Positions 1 to 12,744 of a stretch of DNA of 12,744 nt are shown piece after piece (position 1 is the first letter of the stretch; the number at the start of each line of letters is the position of its first letter). Position numbers and translations under genes: made by a program. The stretch comes from Azolla caroliniana. Its lineage: Eukaryota; Plantae; Polypodiophyta. The DNA lies in the NCBI GenBank assembly GCA_043228905.1, contig JBHGNT010001038.1, forward strand, positions 1 through 12,744. Reading direction: 5' to 3'. The notes beneath the pieces were generated by a model that worked only from the letters and a program-made list of their open reading frames with translations, was not told the origin of the DNA and searched no databases.

Positions 1-447
1 AAAATATACATAAGCAGACCAAGACAAAAACTAGCAAGCGATTTGTGCTAAACTCTAAATATCAATCATAGTTTCTGTGAACAGGATAGACCTTTATTGT
101 GAATTTAAATTTAGTAAGGGCTATTCAACTTCGAAAATTATATATCTTAATAATTTTACAAGGATATGTATCATATTGGAGGGTAGGTATGGTTTATATT
201 GATTCCATATCCCATATTGTTGAGAATTTTAATACGATAGGTTTGAATTTGGAATCATAAAGGTAATTCGTGTGTTATTTTCTATTATTTTAAGCTATTA
301 TAGGTCATAGAACCTGTTTCAATAAGGGCGCTAAATGTTACAAAATGTAGCAAATGTCACTAAAAATGTCTGAATTGGACATAAAATTGGTATCTTTTCA
401 CACATATATCATTAAGTTCCCCCACAGACACAATCTTCCTTTTAAAA

Positions 448-797
448 AAGAGGGTTTTATACAAGAACTCGATATAGGGTATCGAGTTCTTGTATAAAAC
501 ACTCTTATTAAACAGAAACTCGATACAACGTATCGAGTTCCTGTTTAAAGTGGGGGATTTAAATAGTAACTCGATACGGCGTATCGAGTTGCTGTATAAA
601 GCCCTACATTAAACAGGGACTCGATACGCCGTATCGAGTTACTGTATAAAACACCCACATTAAACAGGAACTCGATATGGCATATCGAGTTCCTGTATAA
701 AGTGGGGGATTTAAACAGGAACTCGATACACCGTATCGAGTTCATGTTTAATAAGAGTATTTTATACAGGAACTCGATACCCTGTATCAAGTTCTTG
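448..797. repeat. Tandem array of 7 palindromic (hairpin) units, period 50-51 bp; whole array forms a larger inverted repeat
   Basis: Core (A/G)ACTCGATA-N5-TATC(G/A)AGTT starts at 466, 517, 568, 618, 669, 720, 771. Unit 1 has 27-bp arms (448-474 / 480-506, one mismatch). 463-548 is close to the reverse complement of 710-796. Confidence 0.95.
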
Positions 798-1043: not shown

Positions 1044-1309
1044 TGGTAAGCTTAAGGTTAGTTAGTTAGACCTAAGAGAGAGTTTCTTTGACTTTAGGAA
1101 ACTTTTTTCTTAGACCTTAGTACACTTTATTTAGTACATAATCTTGAATGTACCAATGAATCTCTAATGGGTTTTAATTAAATGATGTTTATGAATGAAT
1201 CAAATGATTAAATACTCAAACTCACATATTAATCTTGACAATAATTGTCTTTTTCTCTCTTTTCTATCTCTAATACTAATCCTCTCTGTCTCTGGTACTA
1301 CTTCTGACA
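1044..1309 (+). mobile_element. Putative degenerate 5' LTR of the Ty3/gypsy element
   Basis: Ends in TGACA (1305-1309) followed by GTTTGAACC, the same LTR-end context as at 11476-11490, and gag ATG follows about 50 bp later. The left boundary is a guess. Confidence 0.45.
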
Positions 1310-1356
1310 GTTTGAACCGAATTTTATCCTCTTATCATTCCTTCCTCTTGACTCTA

Positions 1357-1790
1357 ATGGTGAATGTTAGTGCACATGAATACCAATTTGTCTTTTCAGA
1401 GCTTCAGTGCTTGAAAGAAAAGTTCGTAGCACTAGAACAAGAAAATCAACGTTTGTTGGGGGATCTTCAACAAATCACCATAGAAAAGCAACAAATGCAA
1501 CCACACCATAAGGACTGGGTATTACGAGTACAACAATTGGAAGCAACTATTATCTTGTTACAACAACAAGGAACGGGTACTCAAGGAATCCTTAAGGAAC
1601 CCAAGGTTGGCCGTCCCATGAAATTTTATGGAACACGGTCACAGTTTAGAGGGTTCCTCAACCAAGTACAATTGGCAATTCAAATGCATCCTTCTTGATA
1701 TCCAACTGATGCGTCACGAGTGGGGTTAGTAGACATATTATTTAGTGGTACAAAATTAGCATGGTTTGACCTTTGTTGGAAAAAGGATCA
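1357..1790 (+). pseudogene. gag: Ty3/gypsy gag, N-terminal part, inactivated and truncated
   Basis: Coiled-coil followed by KEPKVGRPMKFYGTRSQFRGFLNQVQLAIQMHPS*YPTDASRVGLVDILFSGTKLAWF, typical of Ty3/gypsy (chromovirus/sushi-like) capsid. Stop TGA at 1696-1698 (probably CGA), then a frameshift. Confidence 0.85.
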
Positions 1791-1799
1791 TTAATGCAT

Positions 1800-2439
1800 T
1801 TCGCTACATCAATTACGTAAGGAGGGAAGAAAGGAAGCAATGTTTTTTTTGCAGTATCAATAAAGTCTTCTAGTGTCACTGAGGCAAAGTCAACAATTCA
1901 ACTTCCAAAAAAGTATTATGATTATGCTGATGTTTTTGATAAGGTAAAAGCAAATACACTTCCACAACATCGATTGTATGATTGTCCCATTGATTTACAA
2001 CCAGGAAAAGAGCCACCATGGGGCCCAATCTACAATTTGTCACCAACAGAGCTTGAGGTTCTTCGAGCCTACATAGAGGAAAACTTGGCAAACAGGTTCA
2101 TTGGACATTCAAAATCTATAGCGGTGCACCCATTTTCTTCGTAAAGATAAAAGATGGATCACTTCACATAGTCATGGATTATCGGGGTTTGAATAAAGTT
2201 ACTCTCAGGAATAGGTATGCACTTCCCTTGATCTCTAATATTTTAGAAAGGATTAATGGTACAAGATATTTTAAAAAGATCCATTTATGAGGTGCATATA
2301 ACCTTGTACGTATCCGGCCAGGAGATGAGTGGAAGACAACTTTTGGTACCCGATATGGACATTTTGAGTATATTGTTATGCCAAAAGCACCAACAATTTG
2401 TTAGCACATGGAAAATGACATTTTTCGAGATCTTTTGGA
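1800..2439 (+). pseudogene. pol: Ty3/gypsy pol fragment: PR-RT linker and N-terminal reverse transcriptase
   Basis: [122 protein letters not shown]. Contains stops, a frameshift and loss of FGLT, and ends before YxDD. Confidence 0.93.
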
Positions 2440-2690
2440 AAAGATGACGATAGAAGGTAGAGAGAGAGAAAGAAGATTGGAACAAAAAAAGGTTTATATT
2501 ATAAGAGAACAAGGGTTACAAAGAGTAGGCTAAGGGGCTGAAGACTGATGTTGAACGAAATGAGTTCTGATGAATTAGTATACACCTATTTATATGTCTT
2601 TATAGAGTATTCTAGAATATTCTAGAGTATTTTAGATATTTACGATATTAATCATGGAATATTCTAGAATGATCTAGAATACTCTAAAGG
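2440..2690 (-). mobile_element. Inverted LTR fragment (U3-TATA-R) of a gypsy-like family
   Basis: Repeated TATTCTAGA motifs as in the LTRs at 11006 and 12436. Minus-strand TATAAATA at 2594-2587, followed by TTCAACATCAGTC (compare TTCAACACCAGTC at 11282-11294), then a CT-rich tract. Confidence 0.6.
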
Positions 2691-3004
2691 GGTAAAAGCA
2701 TGCGAGTGGAAACACTATTATAGCTAATTAGCTGCTAAAATGGCCATAGCTATTTAGCTATTTGTTTAGCTAGTTTTTTGTGGGCAAATCATAAGGATCA
2801 TTTACGAAATTTTATGCTTTTTTAGTTAAATACATGTCATTTAAATACATGCCATTTAATTTATGAGAATACTCAAAAATTTGAATTTTGGTTTCTGACG
2901 TAGTGGAGCTTGGGGAACAATGCCCTCATCTAAACTCGACTTGAATGTCACCAAATTCCTGTTTAGGGTGAGTTTGAGTTCGAAATCCAAATATATCAAG
3001 TACT

Positions 3005-5116: not shown

Positions 5117-5209
5117 ATTGATCCATGCGTGATATTCGTAGTATTCAACATTCGTAATATTCGTAATATTCGAGAATATGAAATGACCCCAAGAATATTA
5201 TAGAACCAT

Positions 5210-6420
5210 TCGTTTATTTATTTATTATTTATTATTTAAAAAAATAAATATTTTTAGATATATTATATAAAAATATTATTAGTGTGAGGTCCCTTTTTAA
5301 TATCAAGAGAGTAAAAAGTAGGGAATTAATGAACCTTTTATTTATTTTTTTATTTTTATTGTTTTATTAAAAATAAAACAAATACTTTTAAGTTTTTCAT
5401 CTATTATAAGAATATTATTAGTGTGAGGTCCCCTTTTTAATGTGAGATAAAAATATGAAAATTTATGGGAACCTTTTATTTATTCTACTTAAAAATTTTA
5501 TTTATTTATTTTTTGCTTTATTAAGAAATAAAACAAATACATTTAAGTTTTATATCTATTCTAAAAAATTACCTAATGGAATGGAGACTTGGGCAAGTTG
5601 ATTAACCTTCTACATTGCATTACAAGACTCATAAACCAGAGAAAGATGGCTCATTTTGTGAAAGAATATTCGGGGGGTTGCTTTATTAAGAAATAAAAAA
5701 AATACATTTAAGTTTTATATCTATTCTAAAAATATTATTAGTGTGAGATAAAAATATGAAATTTATGGGTAACTTTTATTTATTTAGATATTTTTATTTA
5801 TTCTCTGTTTTATTAAATTATAAAACAAATAATTTAAGTTTTATATATATTATAAAAATATTATATGTGTGAGGTCCCCATTTAATAACAGATAAAAATA
5901 TCAATTTTTGTGGGAGAGTAAAAAGTGGGGAACTAATGAAACTTTTATTCATTATTATTTATTAAAAATAAAATATCTTTTAAGTTTTTCATCTATATTA
6001 TAAGAATATTAGTGTGAGGTGCCCTTTTAATAATAGATAAAAATATCAAATTTTGTGGGAGAGTAAAAAGTGGGGAAATAATTAACCTTTTATTTATTAT
6101 GATTTATTAAAAATAAAATAGGTTTTAAGTTTTTCATCTATATTATAAGAATATTAGTGCGAGGTCCCCTTTTAATAATAGATAAAAATATCAAAATTTG
6201 TGGGAGAGTAAAAAGTGGGGAACTAATTAACCTTTTATTTATTAAAAAAAAAATAGCTTTTAAGTTTTTCATCTATATTATAAAAATATTATTTAGTGTA
6301 AGTCTCCTTTCTAATGTGAAGTTAAATATCCCCTATTTAATGTAAAAGTCTCTTTGTTATATGATATATTAAAAAACTAAAAAGTATGAACTTTTTTATT
6401 TTATTTTTACGAATATTTAT
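5210..6420. repeat. AT-rich tandem repeat (satellite-like), unit ~126-155 bp, about 7 copies
   Basis: GTGTGAGGTCC-like anchor at 5282, 5421, 5741, 5867, 6012, 6157, 6296. Shared blocks GAGAGTAAAAAGTGGGGAA and TTTAAGTTTT(T/A)(C/T)ATCTAT. Confidence 0.9.
5568..5677 (+). pseudogene. rpoC1: Nuclear insertion of a plastid-type rpoC1 fragment (RNA polymerase beta' N-terminus; NUPT)
   Basis: Translates as LPNG-(frameshift)[27 protein letters not shown], matching the conserved rpoC1 motif LPNG..GQV.KP.TLHYKT.KPEKDGLFCERIFG. Confidence 0.88.
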
Positions 6421-6872: not shown

Positions 6873-6930
6873 TATGATGGATATTAAGATAATATTATTA
6901 TGATGGATATTATGATGGACATTATGATGA
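6873..6930 (+). repeat. 12-bp minisatellite (TATGATGGATAT)
   Basis: Copies at 6873, 6899, 6911 and partial 6923, directly abutting the copia fragment. Confidence 0.75.
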
Positions 6931-6940
6931 GATCATCTTT

Positions 6941-8227
6941 TTCTCATCTTACACTCCAGGTGACTATGGTGTTGTGAAGATGGGGAATGATGGATTCGCA
7001 AAGGTAATTGGCACAGGAACCATTTGCTTGCAAACCAACACGGGATTTAAGTTGATTCTACATCAAGTACGACAGGTGCCCGATATTAAATTGAATCTAA
7101 TCTCCACATGTACATTAGATGACAAGGGCTACAGCCATGCGTTTCAAAATGGTAAGTAGAAAATCTCTAAGGGTTTGATTGTTGCTAAAGCTAATAAATG
7201 TTGTCACAATGGTTTATATCTTTTGCAAGCTTCTATCTCCACTGACTTTGTCAATGCAGTTGAGAATCCAAATGTTTCAAAATTGTGGTATAAGAGATTG
7301 TCCCATATTAGTGAAAGGGGACTTGACTTTCTAGCTAAGAAAAACGCACTACTAGGTTTAAAAGATGTAAAATTCGATAGATGTGATCATTGTTTGGTAG
7401 GGAAGGCTAAGAGGGTTTCCTTTCTGCATTCTTCTCTTCGACAAGAAAGTGTACTCGAGCTAGTGCATTCCGATGTGTGTGGACCCTTGAAGGTAAGGTA
7501 AATAAGTGGAGCACTTTATTTTGTTACTTTCATTGATGATCATTGTAGAAAGCATTGGGTTCGAATGTTGACGTCAAAAGATAAAATATTTGATGTTTTT
7601 AAAGAGTTTCATGTTTCTGTTGAGAGAGAGACAGGGAAGAAACTAAAATGTATTCACACCGATAATGGTGGCGAATACTATGGATCTTTTGATGCATATT
7701 GTTGAGAGCAAGGTATCAAACATCAAAGAACCCCTCCAAAGACTCCCCACTTAAATGGTTTGGCTGGAAGAATGAATAGAACCCTAGTTGAAAGAGTTAG
7801 GTGCTTATTCTAAGATGCGAAGTTACCCAAATCATTTTGGGGTGAGGCTTTGAATATTGTTGCGCATATAATTAATCTTTCTCCTACTACTGCATTGCAA
7901 GGTGATGTACCAAATAGAGTGTGATATGGTAGGGATGTCTCTTATGATTACTTATGTGTGTTTGGGTGTAACCGTTTTGTACATATACCCAAGGATGAAA
8001 TATTGAAGTTAAATGCTAAATCTAAACAATGCATTTTTTATTGGATATGGTCAAGATGATTTTGGTTATAAGTGTTACGATCCTCTGGGAAAGAAGCTTA
8101 TCAGGAGTCGTGACGTAGTGTTAATGGAGGACCAAACCATTGAGGACATTGACAAGGTGGAAAGGTCGAGTTCCTCTTCAAATGGTGATCTAGTAGATGT
8201 TAATCCAATTCCTATGGCGGATGATGA
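6941..8227 (+). mobile_element. pol: Ty1/copia pol fragment (protease C-term, GAG-pre-integrase, integrase core, SH3-like), Tnt1-like, pseudogenised
   Basis: VKMGND..VRQVPDIKLNLIS; LWYKRLSHISERGL..CDHC; LELVHSDVCGP; YFVTFIDD; TDNGGEY; NGLAGRMNRTL (catalytic E changed to G); FWGEAL; FIGYGQDDFGYKCYDP..RSRDVV. Several stops and frameshifts. No gag, RT or LTR. Confidence 0.95.
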
Positions 8228-10945
8228 TAGCGCTTGAATTTCTTCGTCCATGGCTTCCATCCATCGGTGGTTACAAACCGCTTCTGTAAAGTGTTCGTAC
8301 TCTTGTTCACCCACTACCTTCATCATGAAGGTATAGTGGTGTGCCATGAACTCGTTGTAGCCATATCAAGTGATCACATTCTTCTCTCTGGACAAGCATC
8401 AAAATTTTTCGTTTGCAGCTCCAAGCGTCTTCTTTAGGCCAAGTGTTTGCATAATGGGTACCCCAAACTCACTATGTAGTGAGCGAGTCGACACATCCGA
8501 ATGACTTTCGTCATGGTGGTCGACATCATATTGAGGCATCTTTACTTTTCCTTTGTCCGATCTGGCCCATGGTTGCAATGTGGTTTCGTTGCTTGGAGGC
8601 TCTTGTGGTCCACTCATCATGGTTGAGCTTGGACTTTCACTAGGTATAGGCCTCAACCCAATGTCTTCATCCCAGTTGATGTTCGACTCTTCCTCAGTCA
8701 GGCCGGATGGAGCCGAATTGGGTTCATACCAAGATGTTGATTCGTCAAACACAACATCCTGACTTACCCGAACCGTTCAGGCAAAGGGGTTGAAGCACTT
8801 GTATTGGTTTTTCTCAGCTGAATATCCTACAAGGATGCATTTCTCCATCTTCGGGTTGAGATTCTATCATTTTTCGTTTGGGATGTGTACATACACAATG
8901 CTTCCAAACAGTCTCAAGGGTGATAGAATCGGCTTCCTTCCAACATATGTCTTGTATGGAGTTGGCTCATGCACTCCATTAATGGTGCACTAATTCACTA
9001 GGTAGATGACTATTGATGGCATTTCGGCCTAGTTGAATTTTGGCATATGCTTCTCATGCAACATGGCGTGTGCTACCTTGAGTGTATGTCGATTCCTCCT
9101 TTCGGCTACTCCATTATGATGGTGTGTGTGTCAGCACGAAAATTCTCTCCTTATTCCCTAACCTTGGAGATAGGAGATGAATTCATCGGAGAAGTACTCC
9201 TTCCCTCTATTTGATCGTAGGCACCGAATATGCCGACCCATTGATTCTTCCACTAAACTCTTGAGATTTTGGAAGTGTGACAACACTTCACTCTTCTTCT
9301 TCATCGGAAAGATCCATGTGTAGCATGAGTAGTCGCCGATAAAGGTGACGTAATACTGGCATCCTCCGATCGTCGGCGTTTGATCTGGCCCCCATACATC
9401 TGAGTGGATCACGTTAAGGAGGCCGTTACTTACGTGGCTTTCCTTTGGGAATGGGAGACGATGTTGTTTGCCAAGTTGACATGCTTCACACACCTTTTCC
9501 GCTTGCTTTGTTTCAAATGACAACTCCCTTCGATTGGATATCCCGAAGCTGTTGGAGATTGATGTGGCCAATTCTCTTGTGCCACATCTCGATATCCATC
9601 TCAGTCTTGAGACCTTTGGCATAAATGACAATCTTTACCTTGTCCGAATCGAGAATAAACATATGTCCTTCTCTCCTTCCTCTTGTGATGAGTCGACCGT
9701 TCTTTTCTACGAAGCAGTCTCCATTGTTTAACCTGACTTGCATGCCTTGCTCCATGATTTGGCCGACTGAGACCAAATTCTTTGTTATGGTAGGAACATG
9801 CAAAACATTCTTAATGCAAGTGTTATTTCTGTCATTGCCAAAAGGAACATTGCCGATGTGCCGAATTGGATGTGTGGTGCCTTCTCCCATCTCTACGTAG
9901 CCTGGTTGATCCGGACTTCTTAAGTCACTAAACCATTATTGATGTGGCGTAATATGATTTGAGGCACCAGAGTCGACGAACCACACTTCTTCTGAATTGG
10001 AGGTGTTGGTGGAATCGGATGCCGAGATGGAGTTATCCTTATGTCGCATGAAGAACATTCCATTGTAGTCTTCAAAGTCGGAGTTGGTTGTGTAGTTGGT
10101 GAGTTGTTGACTCGCCTCTTTTCTTCCGTCACTCCTCTTCATGATGCCTGATTTTCCCCCAGTAATCACATTTGACAGGCCTATTTTGTTGACTCTGTTC
10201 GACATGGAAGCTCCCCCTTCTTCTAAAGATTTCTTGTATGCTTCCGTCTTCTTGCCAAAGGTTTGAGTTACCTTCATAATTCCAGCCAAATCGTCCTCCT
10301 CTTCCTTGGCTGAATCAACCTCTTCTGCCACTACGACCTCATCCTCGACCACCATCCGAATTTGAGAAGAACACCTGTCCTTCCGACATCTTGCTCTTAG
10401 TTCGGAGATGGTTCTCTTCAACTAATAACATTGATTGAATGTTGAAGAACGAAGGAAGGTTTTCTTTCGTCAAAATTGCCATCCATATTGGGTCGAACCG
10501 TTGTGTGAGGCTACCAAAGTACACTTGCATCATTTCTCCTCTTCAATATTTATGTTGATGGAGCTAAGTGAGTTGCAGATACTCTTGATATTGCATGTGT
10601 AATCCCACATGGACATGTCTTTTTGCTAGATGTTATTCAACTCTTGCCAGAGTTGAAGTTTGCGGGCAATCATATTGGCGGCGAAGATTTTCCTTAAGTT
10701 CTTCCATGCTTCTTTAGGTGTCTTGGCGTCTCGAATGTGGCTAAGCATGTGATTGTGGACACATGTTTCCAAAAAATACATTACCCAACTTGCTCCTTGC
10801 TCCCACGTTGGGTAGTTGGCATTTGTGATGTCAGGTTTATTTTCGAGGGCACCGTTGATGTAGCTCCAATACCCTTGGCTACTAGGTACTATTGTTCATC
10901 TTGTACTTCCAAGATGAAAATTTGCTCTGGTCTAGCTTTTCACTA
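8228..10945 (-). mobile_element. gag-pol: Second Ty1/copia element (different family): gag-protease-integrase-start of RT, pseudogenised
   Basis: Minus strand: EKLD..FSSWKYKM and KTPKEAWKNL (copia gag); degenerate zinc knuckle ~10131-10171; WFVDSGASNH (protease); WHKRIGH..CEACQLGKQHR; IHSDVWGP; YYVTFIGDYS; SNRGKEY; WMEAMDEEIQAL (RT start). PR-IN-RT order is diagnostic of copia. Confidence 0.95.
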
Positions 10946-11005
10946 GGGAACAAGCAACTCATTTGTGTGTTCATGTTGATGTAGTGTCTTCCTTTTCGGT
11001 TTTTC

Positions 11006-11482
11006 TGTCACGACATATTGACATGAAATACATAGTTGGTTAGGATTGAACCTACAACCTCACATCAACAAGATGTCATGCTCAACCATTTTGATATAAG
11101 CATACATTTGTATATAATGGTTTAGTATTCTATAGTCTAGCTTATAGTACATTTCAAAATCAAAATATTCTAGAAATATTGTATGGTATATTCTAGAGAT
11201 ATTTCTCAAGTATATTCTAAAGATATTAAATCTCGGAACTTATATAAATACTTGTAACCTCATTACCACCCTTTGCAGGGATTCAACACCAGTCATTAAC
11301 ACATCAATCTAGTATTCTCGTTTCACCCCATCTTATCTCCTTGATCTTCACCTCTATCTTCATTCTCTTGTGTTGTTCTTGAGTTTCTAGCCTCATCAAT
11401 TATAGCTCTAAGTTCACAACTCATTGCTCGTAGCCCCATCATCCGTGCTCTGTTCGAGTCTGCGCTTGGTGTGTCCGTGATA
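11006..11482 (+). repeat. 5' LTR (477 bp)
   Basis: TG start, terminal inverted repeat TGTCACG/CGTGATA, TATATAAATA at 11241-11250. The first ~245 bp match 12436-12710 at roughly 90% by eye, with short TATTCTAG-type indels. Confidence 0.85.
11031..11103 (-). other. tRNA-like (pseudo-tRNA / SINE-head-like) module in the 5' LTR
   Basis: Minus strand reads GCTTATATCAAAATGGTTGAGCATGACATCTTGTTGATGTGAGGTTGTAGGTTCAATCC: degenerate A box, stem ACAT/ATGT around a 7-nt loop CTTGTTG, B box GGTTCAATCC (11052-11043). Acceptor stem is poor. Confidence 0.6.
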
Positions 11483-11494
11483 GTTTGAATCCCT
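11483..11494 (+). promoter_or_regulatory. Primer-binding site, self-priming type
   Basis: GTTTGAATCCCT follows the LTR end. It lacks the TGG start of tRNA-primed sites, and 11485-11494 is the exact reverse complement of 11277-11286. Confidence 0.7.
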
Positions 11495-11516
11495 TCCAAC
11501 TGGAATCATCACCCGT

Positions 11517-11602
11517 CTTCGTCACCGCCCTTGCTTCTAGAGTTACCATCGTCACAATCCTTGCTTCTAGAGTTACCGTCATCAACATCCTTGGTTTTAG
11601 AG
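11517..11602 (+). repeat. 30-bp tandem repeat, about 3 copies
   Basis: CCTTG(C/G)TT(C/T)TAGAG at 11529, 11559, 11589. Confidence 0.88.
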
Positions 11603-11736
11603 ACGCTTCCTCATCATCATCGTCTTCGTTGCCTTGTCTTCAACATCATCATTTTCAGCACCTCATTTTGTCTTCATGAAACACTACTTCGCTCAACCTT
11701 CATCGTCATCAACACTACTTTGCATGGATTGATTTT

Positions 11737-11933
11737 GATCGCTCAGCTTCCTAGTTCAGGTGGGGGTTACAACCTCTCACTTTCTTGGTGGGGATCAAAT
11801 TATTGCTCGCTTGCACTCTGTTTTCATTTTGGTCCACATTTCACTGCATTTCCTTTTTATGAGGATCGATTTCGATCGCTCACCTTCTAGTTCTGGTGAG
11901 GGTCACAACCACTCACTTTCTTGGTGGGGATCA
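11737..11933 (+). repeat. Pair of ~60-bp direct repeats (11737-11797, 11874-11933)
   Basis: Both run GATCGCTCA..CTAGTTC.GGTG.GGGT.ACAACC.CTCACTTTCTTGGTGGGGATCA. Confidence 0.85.
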
Positions 11934-12054
11934 TGTCGGTTTCTTGCTAGCACTACCGTTTATGCCGTGTTTTGGGTCAAACTTGACTATTTACCCTCTC
12001 ATGATAGAAGAAGTTGGGCCAACCACTTCACCTGCACTCCTTCACCCGTTGTTG

Positions 12055-12378
12055 TTCTAGTTCTCGGTGAGAACAACACATGGTCGCCCACACCCGTTCG
12101 TGTTCCAATTCCAATTCTTGGTGAGGAACACAGATAGTCGCTCAAGTTCCAGTTCCCGGTGAGAACCACGCATGGTCACTCATGCCCATCAGTGTTGTAG
12201 AGTCTAATGAGGACCACATATGGTTGCTCACATCTGTCAATGTTCCAGTCTCTGGTGAGGACCGAACATGGTCCCTCACCTAGTCTCCAGTGAGGACCAC
12301 ACATGGTCGCTCACGTCTGTTGGTGTTCGTGTCTCTAGTGAGGAAAACACATGGTTTCTCATGCTTGTCGGTGCTCCA
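12055..12378 (+). repeat. Diverged ~48-bp tandem repeat, 7 units
   Basis: GGTGAGGACCACACATGGTCGCTCA-like core at 12066, 12120, 12158, 12206, 12254, 12289, 12337 (spacings 54, 38, 48, 48, 35, 48). Confidence 0.85.
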
Positions 12379-12421
12379 CCTCCCACTCATCCCTACATCA
12401 CGCTTTCGAAAAGGCAGTCGT

Positions 12422-12435
12422 AAAGGGGAGGATAA
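12422..12435 (+). promoter_or_regulatory. Polypurine tract (plus-strand primer)
   Basis: AAAGGGGAGGATAA immediately 5' of the 3' LTR start. Confidence 0.8.
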
Positions 12436-12710
12436 TGGCACGACACAATGACAGGAAATACATAGTTGGTGAGGATTGAACCTACAACCTCACATCAACA
12501 AGATGTCATGCTCAACCATTTTGATATAAGCATGCATTTGTATAAAATATTTTACTATTCTATAATCTAGCGTATAATGCATTTCAGAATCAGAATATTC
12601 TAGTCGTTAGTATATTCTAGAAATATTGTACGATATATTCTAGATGGGTATATTCTAGTGATATTTCTCGAGTATATTTTAAAGATATTCAATCTCGGAA
12701 CTTGTATAAA
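12436..12710 (+). repeat. 3' LTR, truncated at the TATA box
   Basis: Matches 11006-11248. Similarity stops after CTCGGAACTTGTATAAA and unrelated sequence follows. Confidence 0.88.
12461..12533 (-). other. tRNA-like module in the 3' LTR
   Basis: Same as 11031-11103 except one base (11041 T vs 12471 G). B box at 12482-12473. Confidence 0.6.
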
Positions 12711-12744
12711 CACGTTCGCGTTCACAAGTGGAAGGATCACGCAT

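What the first reader, a model, noticed from the sequence alone, without database searches (positions are those of the whole stretch)
11241..11494. tRNA-independent self-priming structure (Tf1/sushi type) in a non-autonomous plant LTR element
Seen: AGGGATTCAA (11277-11286), about 30 nt after the TATA box where the transcript should start, is the exact reverse complement of TTGAATCCCT (11485-11494) just past the LTR end. The next bases CACCA (11287-11291) can pair with TGGTG (11467-11471), looping out the LTR end, which can form a small TGTC/GATA (ancestral GACA) hairpin. Established: fission-yeast Tf1 primes reverse transcription by pairing the first ~11 nt of its mRNA with the PBS, supported by adjacent duplexes. 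Inference: this element self-primes and borrows enzymes from a related gypsy family.
Basis: partly seen in the sequence, partly recalled or inferred. Interest (0 to 1): 0.75.

Follow-up and report, generated by a model that had tools for sequence, protein, structure and literature searches.

The report
Self-priming signal in protein-less plant retrotransposon
A high-copy, protein-less plant jumping gene has no ordinary tRNA landing site; that site matches the predicted front end of the element's own RNA in most copies examined, so it likely starts copying itself as the yeast element Tf1 does, a mechanism already predicted for related moss elements.

Summary
Observation confirmed. 11277-11286 is the exact reverse complement of 11485-11494, two bases behind the 5' LTR (11006-11482) of an aged, non-coding LTR element. 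Most family contigs read A at 11276, which gives an 11-bp duplex, the Tf1 length. It starts 32 nt after the TATA box in 38 of 46 LTRs. Of 14 copies with both sites, 9 pair 11/11, 3 pair 10/11, one 9/11 and one 7/11. One copy has a compensatory change, which does not exceed shuffles. A second primer allele and its exactly complementary PBS allele, differing by a 4-nt block, both occur in four runs; they were not shown linked in one copy. No copy has TGG behind the LTR. A chromovirus relic in the window shares the LTR-end/PBS layout, so a Tcn1-type helper is likely but unidentified. No RNA data were available, so start site and cleavage are untested. Self-priming is already predicted for 83% of Tcn1 elements, and this scan noted similar small self-primed elements on other DNA. 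Verdict: new member of a known kind.

The parts
11006..11482 (+). 5' LTR, 477 bp (U3-R-U5), TG...TA here (TG...CA in most relatives), inserted about 30 nt upstream of the gag start of an antisense copia element
   Evidence: loose ends behind 11480; LTR lengths 384-526 in relatives
11243..11250 (+). TATA box, 33 nt before the predicted start (32 nt in 38 of 46 distinct LTRs)
11276..11286 (+). Predicted R nt 1-11, the candidate self-primer (10 of 11 pair in this copy)
   Evidence: start site inferred, not measured
11292..11307 (+). R segment predicted to pair with the U5 end (flanking duplex next to the PBS)
11466..11481 (+). U5 end, partner of 11292-11307; also the integrase-end inverted repeat
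11485..11495 (+). Primer-binding site, 2 nt behind the LTR, no TGG, complementary to R 1-11
11483..12435 (+). Non-coding internal region (953 bp; 745-1577 in relatives) with 30-bp and about 48-bp repeats
   Evidence: no Pfam hit for its two longest + strand frames; no chromovirus Pol hit
12422..12435 (+). Polypurine tract plus TAA directly before the 3' LTR
12436..12708 (+). 3' LTR, U3 part only; 22 of 241 aligned columns differ from the 5' U3; cut at the TATA box by another high-copy repeat
1305..2440 (+). Context: broken chromovirus (gypsy) relic whose LTR-end/PBS junction has the same layout (TGACA, GT, TTGAA)
2445..2720 (-). Context: LTR of another family; TATA 33 nt before an R start ending TTCAA and followed by CATCAGTC; this R pairs 10 of 11 with the relic's PBS

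Best explanation
This is the 5' LTR and primer-binding site of an old copy of a high-copy, non-coding LTR retrotransposon family whose PBS is complementary to 11 bases of its own LTR, and it likely primes reverse transcription with those bases, the predicted first 11 of its RNA, as Tf1 does, likely using enzymes borrowed from a chromovirus (Tcn1-type gypsy). Shown: element anatomy, 11-nt complementarity 32-33 nt after the TATA box, conservation across copies while the intervening sequence varies in length, no CCA-type PBS, and two matching primer/PBS alleles in the population. Inferred steps: (1) transcription starts at 11276; (2) R 1-11 folds onto the PBS, stacked on a predicted R:U5 stem; (3) the helper's RT/RNase H cuts between nt 11 and 12, by analogy with Tf1; (4) the 11-mer primes minus-strand DNA across U5 and R; (5) plus-strand synthesis copies the primer back into the PBS, which would keep R and PBS matched; (6) the helper's integrase inserts the copy with a 5-bp duplication, or the cDNA recombines into an existing copy to give the tandem arrays seen.
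For: Chance controls. Family duplex is 11 bp. 14 copies with both sites: 9 pair 11/11 (2 of them with G-U), 3 pair 10/11. Column identity over 12 rows (two near-duplicates left out): R 1-11 0.98, PBS 0.92, intervening R-U5 0.84; R-to-PBS length 173-260 nt. TATA-to-R1 spacing 32 nt in 38 of 46. L007 has an A-U to G-C double change. Allele B: an R start reading AAGGTGAA before the shared CAA is seen as loose ends in 3, 6, 5 and 12 contigs of runs X1, X2, X7, X9, and its exact complement is the PBS of L044's second LTR; with that PBS as reference the type-A gap form is only 2-4% of depth at that place and no type-A substitution row is among the 40 shown (49 hidden). No TGG within 18 nt behind the LTR in 14 of 14. 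Perfect 5-bp duplications in 3 of 11 LTRs with flank on both sides, none of 4 or 6 bp. The relic at 1305 shares 12 nt across the LTR/PBS junction, and its Pol relatives (70-85% identical over the query) carry RT, RNase H, integrase, SH3_Tf2-1 and Chromo. A second LTR family in the window has the same TATA spacing and an R that pairs 10/11 with the relic PBS but only 6-7/11 across families. Literature: Tcn1 83% self-priming, TSD 5 bp; Tf1 cut between 11 and 12; PBS copied into Tf1 cDNA ends and tandem formation.
Against: No start site, cleavage product or cDNA was observed. Within-copy covariation does not exceed shuffles: one doubly changed pair, reached by 248 of 500 and 156 of 500 shuffles. 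The only long contig with PBS allele B (L044, high coverage, possibly collapsed) carries R allele A in the same LTR and in the next one, so it pairs only 7/11. L036 pairs 9/11 and does not fold this way. The third duplex of the Tf1 pretzel (3' of the PBS) has no consistent partner across copies. The relic's own upstream DNA has no complement of its PBS beyond 6 nt. No coding element with this LTR among 57 loci. PMC2864245 found no self-priming evidence for SM-Tcn1. The loci include near-duplicates and probably come from few host genomes.
Confidence: 0.8

Rival explanations
1. Trans-priming or primer exchange: the 11-mer cut from a co-packaged RNA (helper or sister subfamily) primes this element or overwrites its PBS, so PBS and own R need not match in a given copy.
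For: L044's second unit has PBS allele B with R allele A in both flanking LTRs. PBS allele B is common in laid contigs while R allele B appears in only 3-12 contigs per run and behind a different U3 end.
Against: 12 of 13 locus LTRs with both sites carry mutually matching type-A or L007 alleles. L044 is a high-coverage contig whose second and third LTRs look the same over their shared length, as a collapsed assembly would. Few contigs can be high-depth young copies. Hybrid central LTRs are known from Tf1/Tf2 tandems.
Confidence: 0.12
2. Self-primed, but mobilised by a copia (TAR-like) element rather than a gypsy.
For: TAR copia elements are also predicted to self-prime (89%) and make 5-bp duplications. 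The window copy and four loci (L034, L038, L040, L055) sit in or beside one copia family.
Against: All five are antisense to the copia frame, as nested insertions rather than parts of one element. The junction layout matches the chromovirus relic in the window. Gypsy-type Pol pieces also flank 6 of 57 loci.
Confidence: 0.1
3. A host tRNA fragment or other cellular RNA primes at this site and the match to R is incidental or serves only RNA folding.
For: Priming by tRNA halves and anticodon-loop fragments exists. The host tRNA set could not be searched.
Against: Chance of the match is at most 1 in 1000. A fixed cellular primer would not follow the L007 change or the 4-nt allele B block. No TGG in 14 of 14.
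Confidence: 0.05

Closest known systems
Tf1/Tf2 of Schizosaccharomyces pombe and the Tf1/sushi group (Tj1, Tosmo1-3, Tcry1)
   Same: 11-nt complement of the PBS at the predicted RNA 5' end; PBS next to the LTR-terminal CA; a flanking duplex between R and the U5 end; tandem copies sharing one LTR.
   Different: No coding capacity; only two of the three pretzel duplexes are supported; nothing shown by experiment; plant host.
Tcn1 chromoviruses of mosses and club-mosses (REXdb lineage)
   Same: Self-priming predicted for 83% of 1500 elements, 5-bp TSD. A chromovirus relic with the same junction layout lies in the window; calling it Tcn1 is inference, no tree was built.
   Different: Tcn1 elements average 6.4 kb and encode Gag-Pol with a chromodomain; this unit is about 1.9-2.5 kb and encodes nothing detectable.
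TAR lineage of Ty1/copia (Houba, Osr-1)
   Same: Predicted self-priming in plants (89%), 5-bp TSD.
   Different: No sequence link to a copia LTR or PBS was found here.
TRIMs and tandem-array TRIMs (Cassandra, Helenus, SMART)
   Same: Non-autonomous, PBS plus PPT, tandem arrays sharing an LTR.
   Different: Larger: LTR 384-526 bp against 100-250 bp, unit above 1 kb. Described TRIM PBSs match tRNA where identified. No tRNA-like gene was found in 18 loci or the window.

Membership tests
Tf1/sushi-type self-priming | PBS not complementary to a mature tRNA 3' end | tested here: met
   No TGG in the 18 nt behind the LTR in 14 of 14 copies; that mature tRNAs end in CCA is general knowledge.
Tf1/sushi-type self-priming | PBS not complementary to a host tRNA half or fragment | not testable with these tools
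   No host genome or tRNA set was held.
Tf1/sushi-type self-priming | About 11-nt complement of the PBS in the LTR at promoter distance from the TATA box | tested here: met
   12 of 14 copies pair at least 10 of 11; spacing 32 nt in 38 of 46.
Tf1/sushi-type self-priming | Transcript begins at the first base of the primer | not testable with these tools
   Only contigs could be laid; they cannot show starts.
Tf1/sushi-type self-priming | Covariation of primer and PBS | tested here: inconclusive
   One compensatory pair, not above shuffles; matching allele pair B exists but linkage in one copy not shown and one copy is mismatched.
Tf1/sushi-type self-priming | Duplex between the sequence 5' of the PBS and LTR sequence downstream of the primer | tested here: met
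   R:U5 stem with mean pair probability 0.62-1.00 in 13 of 14 copies; 383 of 410 cells paired in 41 LTRs, with the R side fixed by the search anchor.
Tf1/sushi-type self-priming | Duplex between the sequence 3' of the PBS and LTR sequence (third pretzel duplex) | tested here: inconclusive
   Best partner of the 16 nt behind the PBS falls at different places in different copies; pseudoknots were not modelled.
Tf1/sushi-type self-priming | RNase H-dependent cut between nt 11 and 12 | not testable with these tools
   Needs biochemistry.
Tcn1 chromovirus lineage | RT-RH-INT phylogeny and chromodomain | tested here: not met
   The element encodes no Pol, so it cannot be filed as a Tcn1 member; it can only be a dependent of one.
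Tcn1 chromovirus lineage | 5-bp target duplication | tested here: met
   3 of 11 LTRs with flank on both sides have a perfect 5-bp duplication, none 4 or 6 bp; shared with copia, so not diagnostic.
TRIM | Under about 1 kb with 100-250 bp terminal repeats | tested here: not met
   LTR 384-526 bp, internal 745-1577 bp; size definition from PMC6934838.
Non-autonomous LTR retrotransposon | LTR, PBS, PPT and no coding region | tested here: met
   16 of 17 testable PPT hits are preceded by the family's non-coding internal sequence (L017 had no blast hit; one more too near a contig end); every locus PBS is followed by the family internal motif, which the search used.

The most novel reading that the evidence does not exclude
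The family carries interchangeable primer alleles that move between co-packaged RNAs: an 11-mer cut from one RNA primes or rewrites the PBS of another, so self-priming works in trans as well as in cis. In addition, an inverted copy of the primer at the U3 end, present with both alleles, masks the duplicate primer at the RNA's 3' end. The family would then be a natural record of how primer and PBS co-evolve without tRNA.
Probability: 0.2. Interest if true: 0.62.

Novelty: new member of a known kind. Interest (0 to 1): 0.36.

Why it matters
Self-priming in plant retrotransposons rests on prediction in the papers I read; none of them showed it by experiment. A short, abundant, protein-less family that keeps an 11-bp primer duplex and a flanking stem while the rest of R-U5 drifts shows which cis signals a borrowed chromovirus RT needs, and its two primer alleles allow a direct test of primer/PBS co-evolution with long reads alone. 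It also shows why annotation that requires a tRNA PBS would miss such families. It does not add a new mechanism.

Tried and rejected
No whole genome was held. No RNA holder listed; this says nothing on expression. Viral contigs: R anchor 0 hits, Pol relatives none confirmed, PBS-B pattern 3 hits that are chance matches inside a phage-like coding frame with no window similarity, R-B pattern 0 hits. Genome contigs: nothing. 3 of the 60 metagenome loci (L021, L022, L037) were chance matches and were dropped. The helix-C column was off by one base and was redone. Idea that the LTR belongs to the neighbouring copia in reverse: rejected, since TATA, PBS and PPT all lie on the + strand. Idea of a tRNA-derived U3 (Helenus-like): ARAGORN and Rfam found nothing. 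Relic gag read-through had no Pfam hit. Levin's original papers were not held; Tf1 details come from later papers' passages. Additional file 1 of PMC6317226 (per-element PBS list) was too large to read and may already list the helper family. Contig depth is not copy number and was not used as one.

Full report
Observation. The letters are as stated. 11277-11286 is the exact reverse complement of 11485-11494, and the pairing stops on both sides in this copy. A 10-nt exact complement of the 20 nt behind the LTR arose in 5 of 5000 shuffled LTRs, and never in the slot after the TATA box. Folding 11270-11500 gives the duplex at z = -3.44.

Anatomy. Self-alignment gives a 5' LTR from 11006 and a second LTR from 12436, behind a polypurine tract. 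Public contigs fix the LTR end at 11482: 58, 47, 57 and 31 contigs in four runs continue past 11480 with CA and then unrelated DNA. The internal 953 bp are repetitive and gave no Pfam or chromovirus Pol hit. The 3' LTR is cut at its TATA box, from 12709, by another high-copy repeat, also seen in L011. The two U3 copies differ at 22 of 241 columns, so this copy is old. The family covers all 30 bins of the stretch in four runs from three coded organisms. The element sits in the leader of an antisense copia relic.

Relatives. One scan with a 19-nt anchor in R, outside the 11-mer, gave 60 loci; 57 belong to the family and 3 were chance. They include near-duplicates and probably come from few genomes. 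In 46 distinct LTRs with a TATA box, 38 have R position 1 exactly 32 nt behind it, preceded by C in 41. In the runs, A at 11276 makes up 97-99.6% of depth, so the family duplex is 11 bp, the Tf1 length. Thirteen locus LTRs plus the window have both sites: 9 pair 11/11, 3 pair 10/11, one 9/11, one 7/11. The distance between the sites ranges from 173 to 260 nt and the intervening columns are less conserved (0.84) than R 1-11 (0.98) or the PBS (0.92). None of the 14 has TGG within 18 nt of the LTR. Three of 11 LTRs with flank on both sides have a perfect 5-bp duplication; 7 LTRs in 6 loci have a PPT before and a PBS behind them, that is tandem arrays, though some of these contigs may be collapsed.

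Covariation. Inside single copies it is thin: L007 changes one A-U pair to G-C, L009 and L059 keep G-U pairs, and the whole does not exceed shuffles (248 of 500; 156 of 500). The stronger sign is at population level. One search showed an R variant with a 4-nt block change; I predicted its complement and found it as the PBS of L044's second LTR. Laid on that reference, both alleles appear in all four runs: R allele B as loose ends in 3, 6, 5 and 12 contigs, and PBS allele B as the apparent bulk of the depth at that place, with the type-A gap form at 2-4% and no type-A substitution among 40 shown rows of 89. Type-A contigs may be under-laid on a type-B reference, so this is presence, not frequency. 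Against the simple reading, L044 itself joins R allele A to PBS allele B. That can be a collapsed contig, a hybrid central LTR as known for Tf1/Tf2 tandems, or real primer exchange.

Structure. The same bases form a longer stem between R 17-32 and the U5 end, more stable in 13 of 14 copies. This matches one of the two flanking duplexes of the Tf1 pretzel as described in bioRxiv 2022.12.06.519325. The other, 3' of the PBS, has no consistent partner. The U3 end carries an inverted near-copy of the primer: 45 of 46 related LTRs fold better there than with shuffled U3 letters (mean -6.7 against -4.1 kcal/mol; not independent copies), and allele B is preceded by a 12-bp inverted copy. Its role is a guess.

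Helper. No coding element with this LTR was found: 16 of 17 testable PPT hits follow the non-coding internal sequence, and Pol-like pieces in 6 of 57 loci lie in flanks, in either orientation. The window holds a broken gypsy relic whose LTR/PBS junction shares 12 nt with the family junction. Its Pol relatives carry RT, RNase H, integrase, SH3_Tf2-1 and Chromo, and the best solved relative is Ty3 Gag-Pol. A further LTR at 2445-2720 on the minus strand has the same TATA spacing and an R start that pairs 10 of 11 with the relic's PBS, against 6-7 of 11 across families. The relic's own upstream DNA shows no such complement (best 6 nt). Calling the relic Tcn1 and the host a moss-like plant is inference from this layout, from recalled resemblance and from the published range of Tcn1; no tree was built.

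Comparison with what is known. PMC6317226 (passages and supplementary table 5 read) predicts self-priming for 83% of 1500 Tcn1 and 89% of 203 TAR elements. PMC2864245 (passages) saw no priming signal in SM-Tcn1. PMC4600332, PMC7175516, PMC5341516, PMC11042837 and the bioRxiv paper above (passages) describe the Tf1 mechanism. PMC4717578 (passages) found no TRIMs in Physcomitrella patens and describes tandem arrays; PMC11899658, PMC7466625, PMC10886601, PMC6934838 and PMC12786077 were read as passages. Eight literature searches did not turn up this family or a non-autonomous self-priming moss element; most hits were seen only as listings, and Repbase, subscription papers and Additional file 1 of PMC6317226 could not be read. 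Earlier notes of this scan report small self-primed LTR elements on other DNA, none on this sequence; they are unchecked and not used as support.

Verdict. The feature is real and probably works like the Tf1 self-primer (0.8). It is not a Tcn1 member, having no Pol, and is too large for a TRIM; it is a non-autonomous dependent, probably of a chromovirus. New member of a known kind, interest 0.36. The two primer alleles and the U3 anti-primer are the parts worth a second look.

Noticed in passing
window 11262-11286 and the same place in 46 LTRs; loose ends before L044:2706: The U3 end holds an inverted near-copy of the primer (7-9 bp hairpin with R in type A; 12-bp inverted repeat in type B). 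It could mask the duplicate primer at the RNA 3' end. Weak in the window copy.
   Followed up: partly
L044:2411-2880: Middle LTR of a tandem array with R allele A and PBS allele B; a collapsed contig, a hybrid LTR or primer exchange.
   Followed up: partly
window 12709-12744; L011:1532-1567: End of another high-copy repeat that cuts the 3' LTR at the TATA box here and cuts a family LTR inside R in L011; class not determined.
   Followed up: no
window 2445-2720 (-) and 1305-1322 (+): A second LTR family with the same TATA-to-R spacing and TTCAA/CAYCAGTC context; its R pairs 10 of 11 with the PBS of the chromovirus relic it interrupts.
   Followed up: partly
L002, L006, L027, L030, L041, L044: PPT-LTR-PBS junctions, i.e. 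tandem arrays sharing one LTR (7 LTRs in 6 loci); several contigs are low-coverage, some high.
   Followed up: partly
window 8200-10976 (-); L034, L038, L040, L055: The family lies in or beside the same copia family five times, always antisense to its frame; may be chance nesting.
   Followed up: no
window 11040-11065 and L044:748-780: U3 begins with a motif that by eye resembles an antisense tRNA T-loop/B-box (recalled); ARAGORN and Rfam found nothing.
   Followed up: partly
window 436-797: Array of about 6.6 palindromic 51-bp units forming nested inverted repeats; only sub-threshold miRNA-family hits.
   Followed up: no
window 5198-6420: AT-rich array of about 145-bp units.
   Followed up: no
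window 5575-5680: About 100-bp insert inside that array that reads like the start of an RNA polymerase beta-prime gene (weak Pfam RNA_pol_Rpb1_1 hit, E 0.095); probably a plastid DNA fragment.
   Followed up: partly
window 6893-8200 (+): A second, broken copia relic in the opposite orientation, abutting the first.
   Followed up: no
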